64,000 bases of DNA from an uncultured Gammaproteobacteria bacterium (lineage in GTDB: Bacteria > Patescibacteriota > Patescibacteriia > Magasanikbacterales > GWA2-37-8): assembly GCA_964540825.1 (NCBI GenBank), contig CAZINT010000002.1:64477-128476 (forward strand), given 5' to 3'. The position numbers and the translations under genes are program-made. A model generated the notes under the pieces. The model made no database searches, was not told the origin of the DNA, and saw nothing but the letters and a program-made list of their open reading frames with translations. Positions within the stretch are counted from its first letter, which is position 1, and each line of letters begins with the position of its first letter. Below, piece after piece: positions 13,598-61,555 of this stretch.

Positions 13598-14029
13598 ATG
13601 AAAAAGGTAATTGCGTTTGGTACATTTGATGTCGTCCATCCGGGCCACGTACACATGCTTACCGAAGCCAAAAGTTATGGTGATTACTTGGTAGTGGTCA
13701 TTGCGCGCGATGCAACGGTAGCCGAAGTTAAAAAACATTCAACACTCCATTCAGAAACAACCCGGCTTAAACATATTGAGGCTTTAGGCATAGCCGACAA
13801 AGTCAGACTTGGCAATCTGGGTGATAAGTTCAAAGTAATCGCCGAGGAAGAGCCTGACATTGTTGCGCTCGGATATGACCAAAAGGTACCGATTGATAAA
13901 CTTTCAGCAGCCATAGACGATCATGTAAAAATTGTCCGTCTTTCGCCGTTTAAACCTGAAATTTACAAAAGTTCAAAATTAAAAAAATATGAAGATTCTT
14001 ATCGCGACGACCAATCCGGGAAAATTTAA
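13598..14029 (+). CDS. cytidylyltransferase-family nucleotidyltransferase (TagD / RibL-like)
   Basis: MKKVIAFGTFDVVHPGHVHMLTEAKSYGDYLVVVIARD closely resembles glycerol-3-phosphate cytidylyltransferase N-terminus (GTFDxxHxGH). Confidence 0.7.
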   Translation: MKKVIAFGTFDVVHPGHVHMLTEAKSYGDYLVVVIARDATVAEVKKHSTLHSETTRLKHIEALGIADKVRLGNLGDKFKVIAEEEPDIVALGYDQKVPIDKLSAAIDDHVKIVRLSPFKPEIYKSSKLKKYEDSYRDDQSGKI

Positions 14030-15014
14030 AGAAGCAATTTCCTTGTTTGCTGATTTGGACTACACATTCGTCAACCTTAAGGATCTTCACCTTGATGCAG
14101 ACGAACCTGACGAACCCTATGATACTACTTTTGAAAACGCGGTTCATAAAGCTCGTTATTACGGCAATAAATCTAAACTTCTGACTATTGCCGAAGATAC
14201 TGCTTTTCATGTAGATTTTTTACAAGGCGAACCTGGAGCTCGGGCAAAACGTTTTGGCAAAACCTCCGAAGAGCGTAATGCTAAAGTGCTCACGTCCCTG
14301 CGCGGGGTACCTAAAGCGCGGAGGGGAGCACATTTTCAAACTTCTGCCTGCCTTTACGACCCGTCAACACAGGCAGTAACGGTATTTAACGGGAAAGTTA
14401 ACGGCATTATTACGGACCAACCGCTCGGGGCAGTCCAAAAAGGGTTGGGGTATGATGTTATTTTTTACTACCCACCGCTTAAAAAAACTTTTGCGGAACT
14501 AACGCTTGAAGAAAAGAACACCGTTAGCCATCGGGGCCAAACCATGGCGCAGGTCAAACTTTTTTTAATGCGCTATTTTGCTTTTAAACAAATTATTGTC
14601 CCTTTGGGCATTATTGTAAAAGATCGCAAATTTTTCCTCAGCAAACGCCGCGACACCAGGCCTGAGTTCAACAATAAATGGGAATTTCCCGGCGGAGGAG
14701 TAGATAATGGCGAGGGAATAGTGGACGCATTGAAGCGCGAGCTTAAAGAAGAAACTGGTTTTAGTGTAACTGTTCTTGAACAATTGCCTAAAATATTGAC
14801 TGCAAGCGATAAAAAAGGTAGTTTTCCGTATCAGGTTTTTTTAATAGTGCACGTTTGTTCGATTGTATCCGGCAAACTTAGGACCGCTCCCGCAGAGTCG
14901 TCCGGCAGCGGATGGTTTACCTTAAAAGATATCAAAAAATTAGATTTGATGCCCTTGAATACAAAATGTTTTCAAGGTAAAAATCTAGCAATTCTTAAAA
15001 AATATATTGACTAA
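13989..15014 (+). CDS. RdgB/HAM1 non-canonical purine NTP pyrophosphatase fused to a C-terminal NUDIX hydrolase domain
   Basis: N-terminal ILIATTNPGKFKEA ... TVSHRGQ (Ham1 fold); C-terminal Nudix box GGGVDNGEGIVDALKRELKEETG. Confidence 0.85.
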   Translation: MKILIATTNPGKFKEAISLFADLDYTFVNLKDLHLDADEPDEPYDTTFENAVHKARYYGNKSKLLTIAEDTAFHVDFLQGEPGARAKRFGKTSEERNAKVLTSLRGVPKARRGAHFQTSACLYDPSTQAVTVFNGKVNGIITDQPLGAVQKGLGYDVIFYYPPLKKTFAELTLEEKNTVSHRGQTMAQVKLFLMRYFAFKQIIVPLGIIVKDRKFFLSKRRDTRPEFNNKWEFPGGGVDNGEGIVDALKRELKEETGFSVTVLEQLPKILTASDKKGSFPYQVFLIVHVCSIVSGKLRTAPAESSGSGWFTLKDIKKLDLMPLNTKCFQGKNLAILKKYID

Positions 15015-30244: not shown

Positions 30245-30967
30245 TTATTTTTTCGGTGTTTTAATAAAAAGATATAAAAATTTAAAGGTGGCATTAATAA
30301 TTCTTCCAATTCTTTTTGGCTCGCTCATTAATCGATACAGCCATTCTAGCCCCATTTTTCGCATAAGTAAAGGCGCGCGCTTGATTTTTCCAGAGATAAA
30401 ATCAAATGACCCTCCTACTCCCATGGCTATTTTTACAGTGGGTAGTTTATTCAAATTTTGATCGATCCATTTTTCTTGCTTGCCCATACCAAAGGCAACA
30501 AACAAAATAGTCGGTTGCACGTGGTTTATTTGTTTACACGTGTCATCTGTTTCTAAGACAGTTTCTGTAAGTCTCGGCCCCTTATCAAAACCGACAATAC
30601 TGAGTTTAGGAAATTTTTCTTGTAACTTTTTAGCAGTCATGCTGACCACCTGGTCACTTCCTGAACCGAGCAGGTAGACAGAAACGCCTTTCTTTTCAGC
30701 AAGACCACAGACCTCAAGCATAAAATCTATACCTGCCAGGCGCTCAAGCTTTCCGCCCGATACAAGCTCGAGTCCCCGCCCATCGCACAAGTTTAGGTCT
30801 CCCCTATTTAATACTTCTTTAAAATAGGGGTCAGTGTAGGCTTTGACGAGCATCTCAGGGTTAGGGGTAAAAATGGTTTTTGGACTGTTCCCGATCAAAA
30901 AACCGGCTGCTTTTTGCAGCGCTTCTTCCTGGGTAACTTCATCCACGCGAACGTCTAAAATACGCAT
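30245..30967 (-). CDS. WecB/TagA/CpsF-family glycosyltransferase (N-acetylmannosaminyltransferase-like)
   Basis: GVGGSFDFISGKIKRAPLLMRKMGLEWLYRL C-terminal signature; ATG at 30967 (MRILDV...) preferred over the longer ORF that runs into the promoter. Confidence 0.8.
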   Translation of the reverse strand: MRILDVRVDEVTQEEALQKAAGFLIGNSPKTIFTPNPEMLVKAYTDPYFKEVLNRGDLNLCDGRGLELVSGGKLERLAGIDFMLEVCGLAEKKGVSVYLLGSGSDQVVSMTAKKLQEKFPKLSIVGFDKGPRLTETVLETDDTCKQINHVQPTILFVAFGMGKQEKWIDQNLNKLPTVKIAMGVGGSFDFISGKIKRAPLLMRKMGLEWLYRLMSEPKRIGRIINATFKFLYLFIKTPKK

Positions 30968-30990
30968 AACAAAGCCAGTATAGCACGTAT

Positions 30991-31020
30991 TTGACAAAAC
31001 ATTCAACCCTGGTTATACTA
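30991..31020 (+). promoter_or_regulatory. sigma70-like promoter for the DUF218-clpB unit (overlapping a divergent minus-strand promoter)
   Basis: -35 TTGACA (30991-30996), 18-nt spacer, -10 TATACT (31015-31020); on the minus strand TTGAAT-N18-TATACT lies 9 nt upstream of the wecG-like ATG. Confidence 0.55.
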
Positions 31021-31023
31021 GAT

Positions 31024-31060
31024 TTATCACTCTAGTATAGCGAGTGATAAATTATCACTT
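31024..31060 (+). promoter_or_regulatory. CIRCE-like inverted repeat (putative HrcA-type operator) plus a third half-site
   Basis: TTATCACTC-N9-GAGTGATAA (31024-31050), perfect 9-bp arms; CIRCE consensus is TTAGCACTC-N9-GAGTGCTAA; an extra TTATCACTT at 31052-31060 abuts the ATG; located between the -10 and the start codon of a clpB-containing unit. Confidence 0.6.
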
Positions 31061-31777
31061 ATGGAGCATGCACCCTCAGACTACTTTAAAAACGACTGGC
31101 AAAGTTCACGTGAAAAAATTGTTAAGGAATTTCGTGAACTTATAGAACGTGGGCAACCCATGCCTCAGGAAGACTGGTCGCTTATTTGGGTTTTTAGTGG
31201 CCCAGAAGCAACATTTGAAGACAAACCCAATATTGAAACCAACGCGATTACCGGCACAAACTACCCTAATCAAACCCGAGAACGCTTTGAGACAGGCATT
31301 CGTATAGTGAGAGCAGTGACCGCGCTTCGTCTACGCAAACAAGAAGACCAAATTTCGAGTGAAGATATTAAAAATGCTGGTCCGATACTTTATTTTAATG
31401 GCCGAGACGAACAAAACGAGTATTTGCGAGGCATGTTGGCAACGGGAGAAAATAAAATTTTAAAAGAAATTCCTGCAAACAACATTGTTATATCAACGAG
31501 TACGGATATAGAAAACACCGGTCATCAGTTTATAGATTTTACCGAGCATTTTCCACATTTGCCACCAGAAGAAAAAACAATTTTAGTAAGCGACCTCTAC
31601 CACCTCCCCCGCATCAAACGATACGCCGAAACTAAACGGTACAGCTTAAAAAAAGATACCCTTGTTTTGTACCCAACAAAGCCGTACATCTTGCCCTTCG
31701 ATGAAAGCCTGGCAGAAATTCAGAAGATACTCCCCTATGAAAAAAAAGGTTTTATTGATCCAACTAAAGACATTTAA
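31061..31777 (+). CDS. hypothetical protein, possibly DUF218/YdcF-like
   Basis: IVISTSTDIENTGHQF ... TILVSDLYHLPRIKRY resembles the DUF218 core; weak assignment. Confidence 0.45.
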   Translation: MEHAPSDYFKNDWQSSREKIVKEFRELIERGQPMPQEDWSLIWVFSGPEATFEDKPNIETNAITGTNYPNQTRERFETGIRIVRAVTALRLRKQEDQISSEDIKNAGPILYFNGRDEQNEYLRGMLATGENKILKEIPANNIVISTSTDIENTGHQFIDFTEHFPHLPPEEKTILVSDLYHLPRIKRYAETKRYSLKKDTLVLYPTKPYILPFDESLAEIQKILPYEKKGFIDPTKDI

Positions 31778-31796: not shown

Positions 31797-34430
31797 ATGA
31801 ATCCTCAAAATTTTACCAATAAGTCGCAGGAAACAATCCAGGTAGCGGCCCGCCTGGCCCATGAAAACGGTCAGGCCCAAATTGAACCGCCACATTTATT
31901 TCTGGCCTTTCTCCAAGACAGCGAGGGTATTGTTGTTTCTATTTTGCAAAAATTAAACGTGAACATCAACAATTTTGCCTTGGAAATGCAGAGCATGATT
32001 AACCGGCTCCCGAAGCAAGGCGAAAATTTTGGCGCCGCCCCCGTCGGCCAAGTGCTCCTAGGGCAGGCCATGGTCGGCATTTTTCAAAATGCCGCGAACG
32101 AAGCCAAACGTATGGGCGACGAATATGTAAGTGTCGAACATCTGCTGCTGGCTTTTTTGGTCACTAAAAATCCCATTAGCGATTTGTTGTCCGAAGACAA
32201 AGCAACGTATGATGCAGTGCTGCAAACATTGGTTACAATTCGCGGTACGCAGCGCGTAGACTCGCCAGAGCCGGAAAGCAAGTATAATGCGCTTGAAAAA
32301 TATGGTAAAAATTTGACTGAACTCGCGCGCAAAGAAAAAATTGATCCGGTCATCGGGCGTGATGACGAAATCCGCCGCGTCATGCAGATTCTCAGTCGCC
32401 GCACCAAAAATAACCCGGTGCTGATTGGTGAACCGGGAACCGGTAAAACAGCGGTAGTCGAAGGGCTCGCTCAGCGCATTGTTAACGGTGACGTTCCGGA
32501 GTCGCTCAAAAACAAAGAAATCATGTCGCTCGATATTGGCGCGCTGGTGGCCGGTGCAAAATTTCGCGGTGAATTTGAGGATCGTCTTAAAGCAGTTATC
32601 AAAGAAATAAATAATGCCGCCGGTAAAATCATTCTCTTTATCGACGAACTGCACACCATTGTGGGAGCAGGCTCAAGCGAAGGATCGATCGATGCATCAA
32701 ACATGCTAAAACCCATGCTCGCTCGCGGCGAACTCCACACAATTGGTGCAACCACGCTTAAAGAATACCAAAAATATATTGAAAAAGATGCAGCCCTTGA
32801 ACGACGCTTTCAACCCGTCATTATTAACGAACCGAGCGAAGATGATGCGGTCGCCATACTCCGCGGGATTAAAGAAAAATATGAAGTACACCACGGTGTG
32901 CGCATTACCGACGCTGCCCTTATTAGTGCCGTGAAATTATCCGAACGCTATATTACCGATCGCTTTTTACCTGATAAAGCAATTGATCTCGTGGACGAAG
33001 CAGCTTCCGCCCTTCGCCTGCAGATGGATTCGATGCCTGAAGAGCTTGATAAGATGAAGCGATCGATCATGAAACTTGAAATTGAAAAGCGCGCCCTTAA
33101 TAATGAAAAAGATACTGAATCCAAAGAACGACTGACTAAAATTGAAAAAGATTTGGCCGAGATTCACGAAGCAAGCAACGAACTGGAAGCCAAGTGGAAA
33201 AATGAAAAAGAAATTATTACCCTCATTCAGGATTCCAAAAAAGAAATGGATCGCTTGAAGCAGCAAGCAGATATCGAAGAGCGTCGCGGTGATCTTCAAA
33301 AAGTTGCCGAGATTCGCTATGGACGCCTGCCGCAACTTGAAAGTGAAATTAAAAAGAACGAAAAGAAATTAACGGAACTCCAAAAAATTCGCGGCATCCT
33401 CAAAGAAGAAGTGGGTGAGGAAGATATTGCCAGCGTGGTCGCTCGCTGGACTGGCATTCCGGTTAAGAAAATGCTTCAGAGTGAAACCAGCAAACTGACT
33501 CAAATGGAAAAGGTTTTGGGGGAACGTGTCATTGGACAAGAAGAAGCAGTAAAAGCTGTTTCAAACGCTATTCGCCGCTCCCGCGCGGGCATTGCACCGC
33601 CAAATCGTCCAATCGGTTCGTTTATTTTCCTCGGGCCTACAGGGGTGGGCAAGACCGAACTTGCGAAAGCACTCGCCGAATTTATGTTTGATACCGAAGA
33701 AGCGCTGGTACGCATTGACATGAGTGAATACATGGAAAAACACAGCACATCAAAATTAATCGGCTCCCCGCCGGGGTATATTGGCTACGATGAAGGCGGA
33801 CAGCTTACCGAGATCATCCGCCGGCGCCCCTACGCAGTCGTACTTCTCGACGAAATTGAAAAAGCACACCCTGATGTTTTCAACATCTTACTTCAAGTGC
33901 TCGATGATGGACGAGTCACCGACGCCAAAGGACGGGTGGTTAACTTCAAAAACACGGTTATCATCATGACCAGTAATATCGGCAGCCAGATGATTCTTGA
34001 CATGAATAAGCGCGGCGAATTCGGTTTTAAATCTGCTGAAAAGGGCAAAAAAGCGGTTGATACCTCTGTAAAAGAACGGGTCATGGCCGCGCTCCAGGAA
34101 CACTTTAAGCCGGAATTCCTCAATCGTATCGATGAAACTATCATGTTCCAAACCTTATCGGAGGCCCAGATTGAAAAAATTGTTGACCTGCAACTTGAGG
34201 TTATTCAAAAACGCTTGCACGAAAAAAGAATTACGCTATCCGTTGACCCCGCTGCCAAAAAGTATTTGGCTAAAGAAGGCTTTAACCCGGATTATGGTGC
34301 ACGCCCGCTCAAACGGCTTTTGCAAAATGAAATTCTGGACGAATTAGCCCTTAAAATTATTGAAGGAACAGTTGTCGAAGGGCAAAAAGTTAAAGTGAGC
34401 GTTAAGAGTAATAAAATTTTCTTAGAATAA
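31797..34430 (+). CDS. clpB: ATP-dependent chaperone ClpB
   Basis: Clp N-domain, two AAA+ modules (GEPGTGKT and GPTGVGKT Walker A), long coiled-coil middle domain between them. Confidence 0.95.
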
Positions 34431-49207: not shown

Positions 49208-50038
49208 TTATTTTTTCTTAGCCTTCTTAGCTTTTGGTTTTTTTTCAGTTTCATCATCACTTGCTTCATCTGCTGGCATTTCTTCCAGTGGTTCGCTAGC
49301 TGCTTCTTCGCTGGCAGCTTCCACACGTGCTGGAGCAAAATCGGCACTAGCGTTTACTTCATCTAAAATAATGTTGAAATGATTAATCAAAATCTGAGTA
49401 CTCTGAAGCAAAGCATCCTTTGGAGCGATGGTTCCGTTGGTTTCAATGTTGATGATCAGGCGTTCAAAGTTTGTGATGTCACCAACACGGGTGTATTCAA
49501 CTTTATACCCAACGTCTTTAACCGGAGTATAGACCGAGTCCATCACGATAGTACCGAGGTCATAGTTCTGTTTATCTTTTTCTTCAACCGGTTTATAACC
49601 GCGTCCTTTGCCAACCGTAACGTCGATGTCGAGCGTCTTGTTGCTGGTTAAATGAGCAATTACTAATTCCGGATTAACGATTTCAACATTAGAGTTAGCT
49701 TGAAAATCAGCGGCCGTAACCACTCCCGGGCCTTTTTTAACCAGATTCAAAACAACCGGTTCGTCGCTAAAAATTTTAACGGCCAGCTGTTTGAGGTTAA
49801 GCATGAGCTCCATGGCGTCTTCTTTGACACCTTCTACCGTACTAAACTCGTGCGAAACACCTTTTACTTTAAAGTGTTCAACAGCCGAGCCTGGCAGCGA
49901 AGACAAAAGCACACGACGGAGCGCGTTTCCGAGCGTCGTTCCATACCCGTGATAGCACGGTGTAATAACAACCGAACCGGAGTTCGGTGTCTGCCCCTCT
50001 TGGAATTCCACTTTGGAAGGAAGAAGAAAATTCTCCAT
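49208..50038 (-). CDS. rpoA: DNA-directed RNA polymerase alpha subunit, N-terminal domain only (no recognisable alpha-CTD)
   Basis: alpha-NTD motifs (TLGNALRRVLLSSLPGSAV); ends after about 235 aa in an acidic/lysine tail (ASEEAASEPLEEMPADEASDDETEKKPKAKKAKKK) instead of the HhH alpha-CTD. Confidence 0.85.
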   Translation of the reverse strand: MENFLLPSKVEFQEGQTPNSGSVVITPCYHGYGTTLGNALRRVLLSSLPGSAVEHFKVKGVSHEFSTVEGVKEDAMELMLNLKQLAVKIFSDEPVVLNLVKKGPGVVTAADFQANSNVEIVNPELVIAHLTSNKTLDIDVTVGKGRGYKPVEEKDKQNYDLGTIVMDSVYTPVKDVGYKVEYTRVGDITNFERLIINIETNGTIAPKDALLQSTQILINHFNIILDEVNASADFAPARVEAASEEAASEPLEEMPADEASDDETEKKPKAKKAKKK

Positions 50039-59143: not shown

Positions 59144-61555
59144 TTGTATATGAATAAAAATTCGCTACCAACGATTCTGGTAATCTTGGGCGCAACCGGC
59201 GATTTGATGACTAAAAAAATTGTCCCCGCGCTTTTTCATTTACACCTTGAAAATAATTTACCGGCTTTATTTCAAATTGTCGGCTATTCTCACCGCGCAC
59301 TTAACAACGACTCCTTTCGGGAACACCTAAAAGCAATTATTGAAAAAGACCCCCGTTACAATATAACCGACCCCGCAGAAGTCGGAAAATTTTTACACCG
59401 CTTTGTTTTTCAGCAAGGAGATTTTGAAAAACAGTCCGACTACGTTGCGCTGGCCAAGCGCTTGGGCGCAACGGATGTAGAATGGAAAGCCTGCTCGAAT
59501 AAATTGTTTTACCTCGCTGTTCCTCCGGACTTCTTGAAAACAATCGTTAATCACCTGGCGTCTTCGGAACTCACCAAACCCTGTTCCCCCGAAGAGGGCT
59601 GGACCCGGGTCTTGGTTGAAAAGCCTTTTGGGCGCGATTTGGCTACTGCAGAAAAACTGGATGAACTTCTCGGCAAACTTTTTAAAGAGGAACAAATTTA
59701 TCGCATCGACCACTATTTGGCCAAAGAAATGCTTCAGAATATTTTGACGTTTCGTTTTTCCAACAATCTCTTTGAAAAAATTTGGAACAATCAGTTTATC
59801 GAGCAGATTGAAATTAAACTGTGGGAAACTTTAGGCGTAGAACTCCGCGGACCGTTTTATGATGGTGTTGGGGCGCTACGCGATATGGGACAAAATCATA
59901 TCATGCAGATGCTGGCACTCGTTACCATGGAACGACCTAATGCTTTTACGGCCGCTGCGATTCGCGATCAGCGCGTGGCAATTTTAAAAACACTTCCCGA
60001 GCTTACCAAAAAAGAAGTTGCGGAAAATACGCTTCGCGCACAGTATGAAAGCTACCAGACGATTAAAGGCGTATCCCCCACTTCTACCACTGAGACCTAT
60101 TTTAAAGTTAAAACGGAACTGACGTCACCCCGCTGGAAGGGCGTGCCGATTATTATGGAAAGCGGCAAACGCATGGGCGAAAAGAAAAAAGAAATTATTA
60201 TAACCTTTAAACACGCTGCCCCGTGCCTGTGCCCGCCCGGCGACAAGCACAACAAAAATCAAATTATTTTTGGGCTTGATCCGGTAGAAGGTATTACGAT
60301 TAAGTTCTGGTCAAAAGTTCCCGGGCTTGATTTTAAAATCAACGAACGCACCATCGACTTCATGCTCCGCACGGAAGCAAGCACATCACAGTATGTTGAA
60401 GAATATAAAAAACTTTTGCTTGACAGCATAACGGGCGACCAAACACTCTTCAATGATACGCGCGAAGTACGCGAAATGTGGCGGTTTATCGATTCGATTA
60501 GCGATGTTTGGACAAAACAAATTCCAAAACTCCAAAGCTATGCGCCTGATACAAATACCATCGCAACCACCCACACTTTTGGATCACTCGAAAATACTTC
60601 GAAAGCCCCGCTTAAAAAAATGGGTTTAATCGGTCTTGGTAAAATGGGCGGCAACTTAGCGAGACGTTTGCACTCTCAAGGATGGGACATCACCGCCTTC
60701 AATCGCACTGCCGAAGTTACCCGAGAAATTGAAACCGAAGGAATTAACGGCGCGTATTCGCTACCTGATCTCGTCAAAAGCCTACCAACTCCACGCATTA
60801 TTTGGCTGATGGTGCCTGCAGGTAAACCGGTTGACGACATGCTGTTCGGTAAAACTGGACTCGTACCACTCCTTAAAAAAGGTGATATTGTTATTGACGG
60901 CGGAAATTCATTTTATGGCGACGCCGCTAAACGGGCAGCAAAACTCAAAAAGTTCGGTATACACTTTTTGGACTGTGGTACATCAGGGGGACCAGGCGGC
61001 GCACTGGCCGGCCCATGCCTCATGATCGGCGGAGAACGAAAAATATTTGAAAAAATTGAATATCTCTTCCGCGATTTGGCTGCCCCTGACGCCTATCAAT
61101 TCTTTGATGGGTTCGGCGCCGGGCATTTTGTGAAGATGGTTCACAATGGTATCGAATACGGCATGATGCAAGCCCTGGCCGAAGGATTTGCGGTGATGAA
61201 AAAATCCAAGTTTAAACTTGATTTAGAAAAGGTGACTGATATTTATAACCATGGCAGCGTTATTGAATCGAGACTCGTCGGCTGGCTAGCTTCCGGCTTT
61301 AAAGCCTACGGACAGGATTTGAAAGGCATATCCGGGTCAGTGAACTACACCGGCGAAGGAGAATGGACAGTGCAAGCAGCCAAAAAATTAAAAGTTCCAG
61401 CGCCAGTTATTGAAGATTCATTTAAATTCCGCGTGGCATCACAAAAAAAACCAAGTTACACGGGGCAGCTCTTGTCGACACTGCGCAATCAATTTGGCGG
61501 GCACAACGCAGTACACACCAAGGCAGCCAAACCTCTAGTTAAAAAGAAAAAATAA
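59144..61555 (+). CDS. fusion protein: glucose-6-phosphate 1-dehydrogenase (N-terminal about 490 aa) + 6-phosphogluconate dehydrogenase-like domain (C-terminal about 300 aa)
   Basis: G6PD motifs ILGATGDLMTKK and RIDHYLAKE; C-terminal MGLIGLGKMGGNLARRL NAD(P)-binding N-terminus of 6PGDH and GTSGGPGGALAGPCLMIGG; single uninterrupted ORF. Confidence 0.85.
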   Translation: MYMNKNSLPTILVILGATGDLMTKKIVPALFHLHLENNLPALFQIVGYSHRALNNDSFREHLKAIIEKDPRYNITDPAEVGKFLHRFVFQQGDFEKQSDYVALAKRLGATDVEWKACSNKLFYLAVPPDFLKTIVNHLASSELTKPCSPEEGWTRVLVEKPFGRDLATAEKLDELLGKLFKEEQIYRIDHYLAKEMLQNILTFRFSNNLFEKIWNNQFIEQIEIKLWETLGVELRGPFYDGVGALRDMGQNHIMQMLALVTMERPNAFTAAAIRDQRVAILKTLPELTKKEVAENTLRAQYESYQTIKGVSPTSTTETYFKVKTELTSPRWKGVPIIMESGKRMGEKKKEIIITFKHAAPCLCPPGDKHNKNQIIFGLDPVEGITIKFWSKVPGLDFKINERTIDFMLRTEASTSQYVEEYKKLLLDSITGDQTLFNDTREVREMWRFIDSISDVWTKQIPKLQSYAPDTNTIATTHTFGSLENTSKAPLKKMGLIGLGKMGGNLARRLHSQGWDITAFNRTAEVTREIETEGINGAYSLPDLVKSLPTPRIIWLMVPAGKPVDDMLFGKTGLVPLLKKGDIVIDGGNSFYGDAAKRAAKLKKFGIHFLDCGTSGGPGGALAGPCLMIGGERKIFEKIEYLFRDLAAPDAYQFFDGFGAGHFVKMVHNGIEYGMMQALAEGFAVMKKSKFKLDLEKVTDIYNHGSVIESRLVGWLASGFKAYGQDLKGISGSVNYTGEGEWTVQAAKKLKVPAPVIEDSFKFRVASQKKPSYTGQLLSTLRNQFGGHNAVHTKAAKPLVKKKK

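What the first reader, a model, noticed from the sequence alone, without database searches (positions are those of the whole stretch)
30967..31060. CIRCE-like variant operator (TTATCACTC-N9-GAGTGATAA) controlling a DUF218-clpB unit, inside overlapping divergent promoters
A perfect 9-bp inverted repeat with 9-nt spacer matches the HrcA CIRCE consensus TTAGCACTC-N9-GAGTGCTAA except for one symmetric substitution (G to T at position 4). A third half-site directly abuts the ATG of the 31061 gene. It sits between the -10 box and start codon, the usual CIRCE position, but in front of clpB rather than groESL or dnaK. This suggests heat-shock control of clpB by an HrcA-like repressor with slightly altered specificity. 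Face-to-face TTGACA/TATACT and TTGAAT/TATACT promoters overlap here.
Basis: partly seen in the sequence, partly recalled or inferred. Interest (0 to 1): 0.6.

Follow-up and report, generated by a model that had tools for sequence, protein, structure and literature searches.

The report
T-variant CIRCE heat-shock operator before clpB
The inverted repeat is very probably a real heat-shock operator (CIRCE, bound by the repressor HrcA) in a lineage-specific spelling used by Magasanikbacteria-like and other candidate-phyla bacteria. The spelling change tracks a substitution in the repressor's DNA-reading helix.

Summary
Window 31024-31050 is TTATCACTC-N9-GAGTGATAA. The arms are perfect over 11 bp (31022-31052). 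The repeat starts 5 nt after an 11/12 sigma-70-type promoter and ends 10 nt before the ATG at 31061.

In 113 of those 120 loci the adjacent gene is groES (49), clpB (27), a short hrcA (23), hsp20 (8), dnaK (4) or clpP (2). The window's closest relatives (ClpB 70-74% identical, same synteny) carry the same promoter and operator before clpB, and also before hrcA or groES.

The spelling is not universal in candidate-phyla bacteria. hrcA loci fetched by protein similarity mostly carry the canonical G form. HrcA recognition-helix residue 46 is R/Q/N in 27 of 27 T-type pairs and in 0 of 50 G-type pairs, across at least four apparent clades.

A CIRCE before clpB is already known in Mollicutes. The third half-site has no comparative support. 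The 238-aa gene is a distant YdcF/DUF218-like gene, found between operator and clpB only in this lineage. hrcA in the window's own genome could not be checked.

The parts
30991..30996 (+). -35 hexamer TTGACA of the p238-clpB promoter
   Evidence: part of an 11/12 match with a 17-nt spacer. A TTGACA at the same distance is present in all 15 related clpB promoters shown.
31014..31019 (+). -10 hexamer TATACT of the p238-clpB promoter
   Evidence: Relatives have TATACT or TATAGT (a few differ at one or two bases) ending 0-4 nt before the operator.
31022..31052 (.). T-variant CIRCE operator: ATTTATCACTC-N9-GAGTGATAAAT. The 9-bp core arms are 31024-31032 and 31042-31050. It covers the predicted transcription start (about 31026) and the early leader.
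   Evidence: for the sequence and its rarity. for the heat-shock genes next to the same motif. for conservation in the closest relatives.
31052..31060 (+). Third half-site TTATCACTT (8 of 9), abutting the ATG. It is real in the sequence, but its function is unsupported.
   Evidence: It is absent from the closest relatives. Flanking half-sites number only 6 against 2.5 expected across the 120 loci, and two of those belong to a second CIRCE-like site.
31061..31777 (+). p238, a distant YdcF/DUF218-like gene and the first gene behind the operator. It occupies this position only in the window's lineage.
   Evidence: Pfam DUF218 E = 0.0016, below the cut-off. Only 9 family members among 5.8 billion proteins. 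A conserved SDLYHLPR motif. AF2 model with pLDDT 81 whose best PDB match is YdcF 3ca8_A, TM 0.46. No homologue in any of the 120 loci. The homologues looked up elsewhere lie mostly in glycan gene clusters, none with a CIRCE.
31797..34430 (+). clpB disaggregase gene, starting 19 nt after the p238 stop. No plus-strand promoter-like site and no terminator-like site was found between the two genes, so co-transcription is inferred.
   Evidence: Pfam Clp_N, AAA, AAA_lid_9, AAA_2 and ClpB_D2-small. Promoter and terminator scan. 70-74% identity to the ClpB of relatives whose clpB directly follows the operator.
30977..31006 (-). Candidate divergent promoter TTGAAT-18-TATACT for the wecG-like gene. It interleaves with the plus-strand promoter.
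   Evidence: 9/12, not significant alone. The -10 hexamer and the 9 nt down to the ATG are identical in L002.
30245..30967 (-). Divergent WecG/TagA-family glycosyltransferase gene.
   Evidence: Pfam PF03808, E = 1.4e-52. A wecG homologue lies near clpB on the same locus in 11 relatives; in L019, L023, L091 and L118 it is the first gene read divergently from the operator.

Best explanation
The repeat is the operator (CIRCE) of the heat-shock repressor HrcA, in a spelling with T instead of G at position 4 of each arm.

It begins 5 nt after the -10 box of a strong sigma-70-type promoter, so it spans the predicted transcription start and the first ~25 nt of the leader. An HrcA dimer bound there would block initiation or promoter escape of a p238-clpB transcript.

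By analogy with characterised HrcA systems, repression is relieved when unfolded proteins titrate GroEL away from HrcA, or when HrcA itself is inactivated by heat.

The presumed repressor in this lineage is a short (~226 aa) HrcA. Its recognition helix carries Arg (Gln or Asn in other T-type lineages) at position 46, where G-type HrcA proteins have Ala or Ser. This residue is the best candidate for reading base pair 4.

p238 was inserted between the operator and clpB in this lineage and so came under HrcA control.

What is shown:
- the sequence anatomy;
- the genome-wide association of this exact motif with heat-shock genes, including hrcA itself;
- conservation of the layout in relatives;
- covariation between HrcA residue 46 and operator position 4.

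What is inferred:
- binding of HrcA to this site;
- heat induction and GroEL dependence;
- co-transcription of p238 and clpB;
- presence of hrcA in this particular genome.
For: Anatomy:
- Perfect 11-bp arms with a 9-nt spacer; unique in the window, 0 of 100 shuffles.
- 16 of 18 identity to the canonical CIRCE, with one symmetric change.
- An 11/12 promoter ends 4 nt upstream of the core motif.

Regulon:
My own estimate of the chance expectation is about 10.
- The first gene read away from it is groES in 49 loci, clpB in 27, hrcA in 22, hsp20 in 8, dnaK in 4 and clpP in 2. One representative per family other than clpB was checked with Pfam; the clpB cluster was confirmed by tblastn with the window's ClpB. 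One further hrcA lies 265 nt away in L041.
- Ten genomes carry the motif at two regulon members.

Relatives:
- Those with 70-74% ClpB identity and the gltX-wecG<>clpB-PBP synteny all show TTGACA, a 17-nt spacer, TATAcT, the CIRCE(T), a leader of about 10-90 nt and then clpB.

Unbiased check:
- Two Magasanikbacteria-clade HrcA proteins were retrieved by protein identity (P0045, P0040). Both sit in hrcA-grpE-x-dnaK operons with a T-type CIRCE directly upstream.

Specificity:
- Residue 46 is R/Q/N in 27 of 27 T-type pairs and in the hybrid L151.
- It is A/S/V/M/L, or K once, in 50 G-type pairs.
- T-type proteins fall in at least 4 clades of an NJ tree.
- Residues 38, 42 and 46 lie on helix 38-50, the third helix of the winged helix-turn-helix, in a pLDDT 91.8 model. 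That model's best PDB match is HrcA 1STZ.
Against: - None lies in the parts of the 64-kb window that were annotated.
- No binding or expression data exist for any candidate-phyla HrcA.
- The short HrcA lacks the ~100-aa inserted domain that I recall mediating dimerisation in 1STZ (TMt only 0.60). How it dimerises and senses stress is therefore unknown.
- The residue-operator correlation is partly confounded by shared ancestry, and the NJ tree on divergent sequences is rough.
- L079 has a T/T site and a T/G hybrid site 61 nt apart. This suggests some HrcA proteins tolerate both bases.
Confidence: 0.85

Rival explanations
1. It is a functional HrcA operator, but the G-to-T change is neutral drift in an AT-leaning genome. 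HrcA specificity is unchanged, and position 4 is simply tolerant.
For: - The same spelling recurs before groES in unrelated lineages: Rhodobacteraceae, Salinibacter/Salinivenus and Peptoniphilaceae.
- L079 has T/T and T/G sites side by side.
- L151 has a hybrid site.
Against: - The change is symmetric and fixed at every regulon member seen within a genome. Additional sites in the T loci are also T-type.
- Most short-HrcA candidate-phyla lineages keep G, so AT pressure alone does not explain it.
- Residue 46 separates the two operator types 27/27 against 0/50.
Confidence: 0.2
2. The repeat acts mainly as an RNA element, a 5' stem-loop that affects mRNA stability or works as a translational thermometer together with the third half-site. 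It would not act as a DNA operator.
For: - The arms could pair in the leader. The third half-site can pair with the right arm next to the ATG (centroid structure).
- From my own knowledge, a post-transcriptional role for the CIRCE stem-loop has been reported in B. subtilis.
Against: - The leader's folding energy is ordinary: z = 0.37, and 123 of 200 shuffles fold at least as well.
- The predicted start lies inside the left arm, which shortens the stem.
- The motif is conserved base for base, not merely as a pairing, across different genes and phyla, and it sits at a fixed distance from the -10 box.
- The third half-site is missing from relatives.
Confidence: 0.05
3. The repeat is bound by a regulator other than HrcA, or it is a chance palindrome with no function.
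For: No hrcA was seen in the annotated parts of the window.
Against: - In 23 of 120 loci the motif lies directly upstream of hrcA itself. This is the classical autoregulated arrangement, with grpE and dnaK following in the loci whose gene calls were read.
- There are no HAIR or CtsR boxes near clpB.
- The chance expectation in the window is about 0.
Confidence: 0.03

Closest known systems
CIRCE / HrcA class I heat-shock regulon (Bacillus subtilis type; consensus TTAGCACTC-N9-GAGTGCTAA)
   Same: - 9-bp inverted repeat with a 9-nt spacer, identical at 16 of 18 positions.
- Placed between the -10 box and the start codon of a housekeeping-type promoter.
- In related genomes it lies before groES, hrcA(-grpE-dnaK) and dnaK.
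- The regulator gene is autoregulated.
   Different: - T·A instead of G·C at position 4 of both arms, fixed across whole lineages.
- The associated HrcA is a short form (~226 aa against ~340 aa) without the inserted domain.
- That HrcA has R/Q/N instead of A/S at helix position 46.
Mollicutes HrcA regulon (dnaK operon, clpB, lon; PMC5138195)
   Same: - A small-genome bacterium.
- CIRCE directly controls clpB.
- HrcA is one of very few stress regulators.
   Different: Mollicutes use the canonical G spelling (from my own knowledge; not read in the paper here). The operon here also begins with an unrelated YdcF-like gene.
HspR / HAIR (CTTGAGT-N7-ACTCAAG), which controls clpB in actinobacteria and epsilonproteobacteria
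   Same: A repressor-controlled clpB with an inverted repeat at the promoter.
   Different: The arm sequence, arm orientation and spacing all differ. No HAIR-like site lies near clpB.

Membership tests
CIRCE operator | 9-bp inverted repeat with a 9-nt spacer matching TTAGCACTC-N9-GAGTGCTAA | tested here: met
   16 of 18 positions match, with one symmetric substitution. 0 of 100 shuffles give the exact form.
CIRCE operator | Located at or just downstream of a vegetative-type promoter, upstream of a heat-shock gene | tested here: met
   It starts 5 nt after the -10 box of an 11/12 promoter. clpB lies downstream. The same layout is seen in 15 relatives.
CIRCE operator | The same motif precedes groES/groEL, dnaK or hrcA in the same genome | not testable with these tools
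   The rest of the window's genome is not readable. In relatives the feature is met: 113 of 120 loci, and ten genomes with two sites.
CIRCE operator | hrcA is present in the genome | not testable with these tools
   hrcA is not in the annotated parts of the window. It is present in relatives with 66-72% ClpB identity: L029 on the same contig as L009, P0067 on a contig of the same length as L006's, and L056 and L107.
CIRCE operator | Bound by HrcA; target genes are heat-inducible | not testable with these tools
   This needs EMSA or footprinting and expression data.
HrcA (the presumed regulator, in relatives) | N-terminal winged helix-turn-helix plus a GAF-like C-terminal domain; PF01628 | tested here: met
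   PF01628 hits with E = 4e-5 to 3e-22. AF2 model with pLDDT 91.8. Best PDB match 1stz_A, E = 6e-14, TMq 0.83.
HrcA (the presumed regulator, in relatives) | Inserted dimerisation domain (~100 aa) within the C-terminal domain, as in 1STZ | tested here: not met
   The proteins are 224-252 aa against 338 aa. The Pfam match covers only profile positions ~74-215 of 215. TMt is 0.60, and 226 query residues are spread over 321 alignment columns.
HrcA (the presumed regulator, in relatives) | hrcA-grpE-dnaK operon context | tested here: met
   L208 to L211 show hrcA, grpE, a small ORF and dnaK, with two extra genes before dnaK in L210 and L211.
DUF218 / YdcF (p238) | Pfam PF02698 above the gathering score | tested here: not met
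   18.8 bits against a 27.6-bit cut-off, E = 0.0016.
DUF218 / YdcF (p238) | YdcF-like fold | tested here: inconclusive
   The best PDB match is 3ca8_A (YdcF), but E = 8e-3 and TM = 0.46. The model has pLDDT 81. JGI names homologue P0002 'YcdF (DUF218 family)'.
HAIR / HspR and CtsR operators | CTTGAGT-N7-ACTCAAG, or a tandem RGTCAAA heptad repeat, at the promoter | tested here: not met
   No site lies near clpB. The single HAIR-like hit (22130, 3 mismatches) is within chance expectation. There are no CtsR-like hits.

The most novel reading that the evidence does not exclude
HrcA-CIRCE is often described as among the most conserved repressor-operator pairs in bacteria. Here it appears to have undergone a discrete specificity switch several times. 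Base pair 4 of each half-site changed from G·C to T·A together with recognition-helix residue 46 changing from Ala/Ser to Arg/Gln/Asn. If correct, this identifies the protein residue that reads that base.

The switch occurs in a minimal HrcA that lacks the domain thought to mediate dimerisation, so this form must dimerise, and perhaps sense stress, differently.
Probability: 0.5. Interest if true: 0.55.

Novelty: new variant of a known kind. Interest (0 to 1): 0.45.

Why it matters
For this locus the result is ordinary: clpB is under classical negative heat-shock control.

The wider pattern is more useful.

- It supplies a ready regulon marker (TTATCACTC-N9-GAGTGATAA) for annotating stress genes in Magasanikbacteria, Peribacteria, Saccharibacteria and other uncultured lineages. 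In those lineages HrcA is often labelled 'hypothetical' or 'winged-helix domain-containing protein'.
- It makes a natural repressor-operator coevolution case directly testable with two proteins and two oligonucleotides.
- No HrcA-DNA complex turned up in the PDB by sequence or fold search (only 1STZ was found), so the residue-46/position-4 pairing is a concrete structural prediction.
- I found no paper linking HrcA or CIRCE to candidate-phyla bacteria or to this spelling in the searchable library. That library is incomplete.

Tried and rejected
1. Finding hrcA, groES or dnaK in the window. The 30 largest ORFs scanned gave none. ORFs in about 15-25 kb and 40-47 kb were not scanned.
2. Reaching the rest of the source genome. 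The identical protein P0001 is on an NCBI contig of 248,779 bp, but only Logan pieces of 21 and 11 kb could be read. Looking up two candidate HrcA proteins (P0045, P0040) led to other genomes.
3. The third half-site as a conserved feature. Rejected: it is absent from the closest relatives, and flanking half-sites number only 6 against 2.5 expected across 120 loci.
4. A leader-RNA structure. Folding is not better than shuffles.
5. p238 as a regular HrcA-regulon member. Rejected: the homologues looked up elsewhere lie mostly in glycan/envelope clusters, and none has a CIRCE.
6. The T spelling as universal in candidate-phyla bacteria. Rejected: most short-hrcA loci retrieved by protein have the G form.
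7. HAIR and CtsR operators. No sites.
8. Rfam. No RNA family reached threshold in the window.
It was repeated with database proteins.
10. HrcA sequences from the non-candidate-phyla T-type lineages (Rhodobacteraceae, Salinibacteraceae, Peptoniphilaceae) were not obtainable, so the covariation could not be tested there.

Full report
**1. What is in the sequence**

Between the divergent wecG-like gene (ATG at 30967, minus strand) and the ATG at 31061 lies a 93-nt intergenic region. It contains the following features.

- A plus-strand promoter: TTGACA at 30991-30996, a 17-nt spacer, and TATACT at 31014-31019. This is an 11 of 12 match.
- The inverted repeat TTATCACTC (31024-31032), spacer TAGTATAGC, and GAGTGATAA (31042-31050). 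It is in fact perfect over 11-bp arms, 31022-31052.
- A third copy of the left arm, TTATCACTT (8 of 9), at 31052-31060, touching the ATG.

The full motif occurs once in the window even when 3 mismatches are allowed, and never in 100 shuffles. It differs from the canonical CIRCE by one base per arm.

A minus-strand TTGAAT-18-TATACT (31006-30977) is present, but at 9 of 12 it is not significant by itself. It is conserved in the one close relative that shares this upstream region, L002.

**2. The genes**

- 31797-34430 encodes a full-length ClpB.
- 31061-31777 (p238) has no Pfam hit at E = 1e-3. At a looser threshold DUF218 appears with E = 0.0016 and 18.8 bits, below the 27.6-bit cut-off.
- The p238 family has only nine members among 5.8 billion proteins. 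They share an invariant SDxYHLPR motif.
- The AlphaFold model of p238 (pLDDT 81) has E. coli YdcF, the DUF218 prototype, as its best PDB match, but only at E = 8e-3 and TM 0.46.
- I call p238 a distant YdcF/DUF218-like protein.
- Nineteen nucleotides separate p238 from clpB. No plus-strand promoter-like site and no terminator-like site was found between them, so co-transcription is inferred.

**3. Is the repeat a heat-shock operator? Evidence from other genomes**

My own rough estimate of the chance expectation for 18 specified bases in 596 Gb is about ten.

I took the first gene read away from the motif on each side and clustered those genes. I checked one representative of each cluster other than clpB with Pfam; the clpB cluster was confirmed by tblastn with the window's ClpB. 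The counts were:

| Adjacent gene | Loci |
|---|---|
| groES | 49 |
| clpB | 27 |
| short hrcA | 22 (+1 in L041, 265 nt away) |
| hsp20 | 8 |
| dnaK | 4 |
| clpP | 2 |

That is 113 of 120 loci. In most candidate-phyla loci a TTGACA and a TATA-type -10 box lie immediately upstream of the motif.

Ten genomes contributed two loci, each pair at different regulon members. Examples are:

- CAZHYG01: clpB in L009 and hrcA in L029, on one contig.
- CAZEYR01: clpB in L092 and groES in L100.
- LBTN01: hrcA in L037 and groES in L058.

A motif that precedes hrcA itself, groES, dnaK and clpB within one genome is the signature of the HrcA regulon.

**4. The window's own lineage**

By ClpB identity (70-74%) the nearest loci are L002, L091, L092, L031, L020, L009, L074 (Candidatus Magasanikbacteria RIFOXYD1_FULL_40_23), L006 and L019. 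The gltX-(SPFH)-wecG<>clpB-PBP neighbourhood is shared among them.

All of these loci show TTGACA, a 17-nt spacer, TATAcT, 0-4 nt, the T-type CIRCE, a leader of about 10-90 nt, and then clpB.

None of the 120 loci contains a p238 homologue. In this lineage alone, therefore, p238 has been inserted between the operator and clpB.

The p238 homologues looked up elsewhere lie mostly among glycosyltransferase, aminotransferase and epimerase genes, and none has a CIRCE. Their HrcA control here looks like an accident of insertion.

hrcA in the same genome could not be examined. The source contig (248,779 bp, NCBI) was not readable beyond short Logan contigs of 21 and 11 kb.

Relatives at 66-72% ClpB identity do have hrcA:

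- L029 lies on the same contig as L009.
- P0067 lies on a 233,864-bp contig, the same length as L006's contig.
- L056 and L107 belong to the genomes of L090 and L101.

**5. Is specificity altered?**

I fetched hrcA loci by protein similarity, which is blind to the operator. The source was the metagenome collection, giving 80 loci.

- Most short, candidate-phyla-type hrcA genes there carry the canonical G spelling.
- Only the closest hit (L128) is T-type, and L151 is a hybrid.
- The T spelling is therefore lineage-specific, not a general candidate-phyla trait and not a simple consequence of AT richness.

I then aligned 23 T-type, 26 short G-type and 24 long G-type HrcA proteins.

| Residue (numbering of P0010) | T-type | G-type |
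|---|---|---|
| 46 | R 15, Q 6, N 2 | A/S/V/M/L, K once |
| 38 | G/E/A (also P and S in a few) | P/S |
| 56 | mostly H | mostly Q |

Four further T-type proteins fit the residue-46 pattern: P0045 and P0040 have R, and L041 and L049 have Q. The hybrid L151 has Q. The totals are 27 of 27 against 0 of 50.

In a rough NJ tree the T-type proteins fall in at least four places, each next to G-type neighbours.

An AlphaFold model of the short HrcA (pLDDT 91.8) places residues 38-50 in the third helix of the winged helix-turn-helix. Residues 38, 42 (invariant Arg) and 46 are spaced i, i+4, i+8, and so lie on one face of that helix.

The model's best PDB match is T. maritima HrcA 1STZ (E = 6e-14, TMq 0.83, TMt 0.60). 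About 100 target residues are unmatched, and Pfam covers only the distal part of PF01628. The short form therefore lacks the inserted domain of 1STZ.

1STZ has Lys at position 46. I could not check its operator.

Gln or Asn pairing with adenine would be chemically sensible for a T·A pair. That point is my inference, not a result.

Two caveats apply. Shared ancestry inflates the correlation, and L079 shows T/T and T/G sites 61 nt apart.

**6. The third half-site and RNA alternatives**

- Flanking half-sites are barely enriched: 6 against 2.5 expected in 120 loci, and two of the six belong to a second CIRCE-like site.
- Only L061 repeats the window's arrangement, and the closest relatives lack it.
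- The leader RNA from the predicted start folds no better than shuffled sequence (z = 0.37).
- I treat the third half-site as unsupported. It may be a by-product of the p238 insertion junction.

**7. Comparison with what is known**

The element meets the sequence, position and, in relatives, regulon criteria for CIRCE.

- HAIR and CtsR operators are absent.
- Full-text searches found no paper that combines HrcA or CIRCE with candidate-phyla names, or that gives this spelling in a CIRCE context. The library is incomplete.

**8. Verdict**

The locus is an ordinary HrcA-repressed clpB promoter. It is written in a lineage-specific operator spelling that co-varies with the repressor's recognition helix.

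- Confidence that it is a functional HrcA operator: about 0.85.
- Confidence that the spelling reflects a real change in HrcA specificity: about 0.5 to 0.6.
- Novelty: a new variant of a known kind.
- Interest: moderate.

Noticed in passing
L029:6959-7639 (-) and 22 other loci; proteins P0010-P0129: HrcA in candidate-phyla bacteria is a short form (224-252 aa). It has a winged helix-turn-helix and a GAF-like domain but lacks the ~100-aa inserted domain of T. maritima HrcA (1STZ). NCBI often names it 'hypothetical protein' or 'winged-helix domain-containing protein'.
   Followed up: partly
L138, L142, L143, L146, L148, L154 (upstream of short hrcA): A second CIRCE spelling, TTGGCACTC (A to G at position 3), recurs upstream of short hrcA genes in metagenome contigs.
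   Followed up: no
L004, L054, L057, L059, L077, L088, L103, L106, L109, L113, L115; L013, L025, L051, L114, L116, L119, L120; L043, L070, L081, L108: The same T-type CIRCE precedes groES in Rhodobacteraceae, Salinibacter/Salinivenus and Peptoniphilaceae/Tissierellia. The spelling therefore arose outside the candidate phyla too (in L077 and L120 groES is not called because the locus ends just past the motif). Their HrcA sequences could not be obtained to test residue 46.
   Followed up: no
L079:5514-5601: A T/T CIRCE and a T/G hybrid CIRCE (TTATCACTC-N9-GAGTGCTAA) lie 61 nt apart upstream of an hsp20 gene in a Pseudomonadota MAG.
   Followed up: no
window 30960-31010 compared with L002: The window and L002 share the divergent -10 box, the 9-nt leader and the first four codons (ATGCGTATTTT), although the genes that follow differ: wecG here and a 184-aa ORF, unannotated and guessed from its N-terminal sequence to be LigT-like, in L002. 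The -10 box ends 9 nt before the ATG, which suggests a nearly leaderless mRNA.
   Followed up: no
window 59144-61555 (+): An 803-aa ORF fuses glucose-6-phosphate dehydrogenase (G6PD_N and G6PD_C) to 6-phosphogluconate dehydrogenase domains (NAD_binding_2 and 6PGD).
   Followed up: no
window 13989-15014 (+): A 341-aa ORF fuses a Ham1-family (ITPase-like) domain to a NUDIX domain.
   Followed up: no
window 49208-50038 (-): The rpoA product (276 aa) shows only the N-terminal and insert domains in Pfam at E = 1e-5. No alpha C-terminal domain hit appears.
   Followed up: no
L002, L006, L009, L020, L031, L091, L092 (record titles): MAGs titled 'uncultured Gammaproteobacteria' or 'Candidatus Udaeobacter' encode ClpB 72-74% identical to the window's and share synteny with L074, which is titled Magasanikbacteria. 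Their taxonomic titles look wrong.
   Followed up: partly
L041:4919-5209: In a Komeilibacteria MAG the T-type CIRCE and its promoter lie 265 nt upstream of hrcA. This is an unusually long leader.
   Followed up: no
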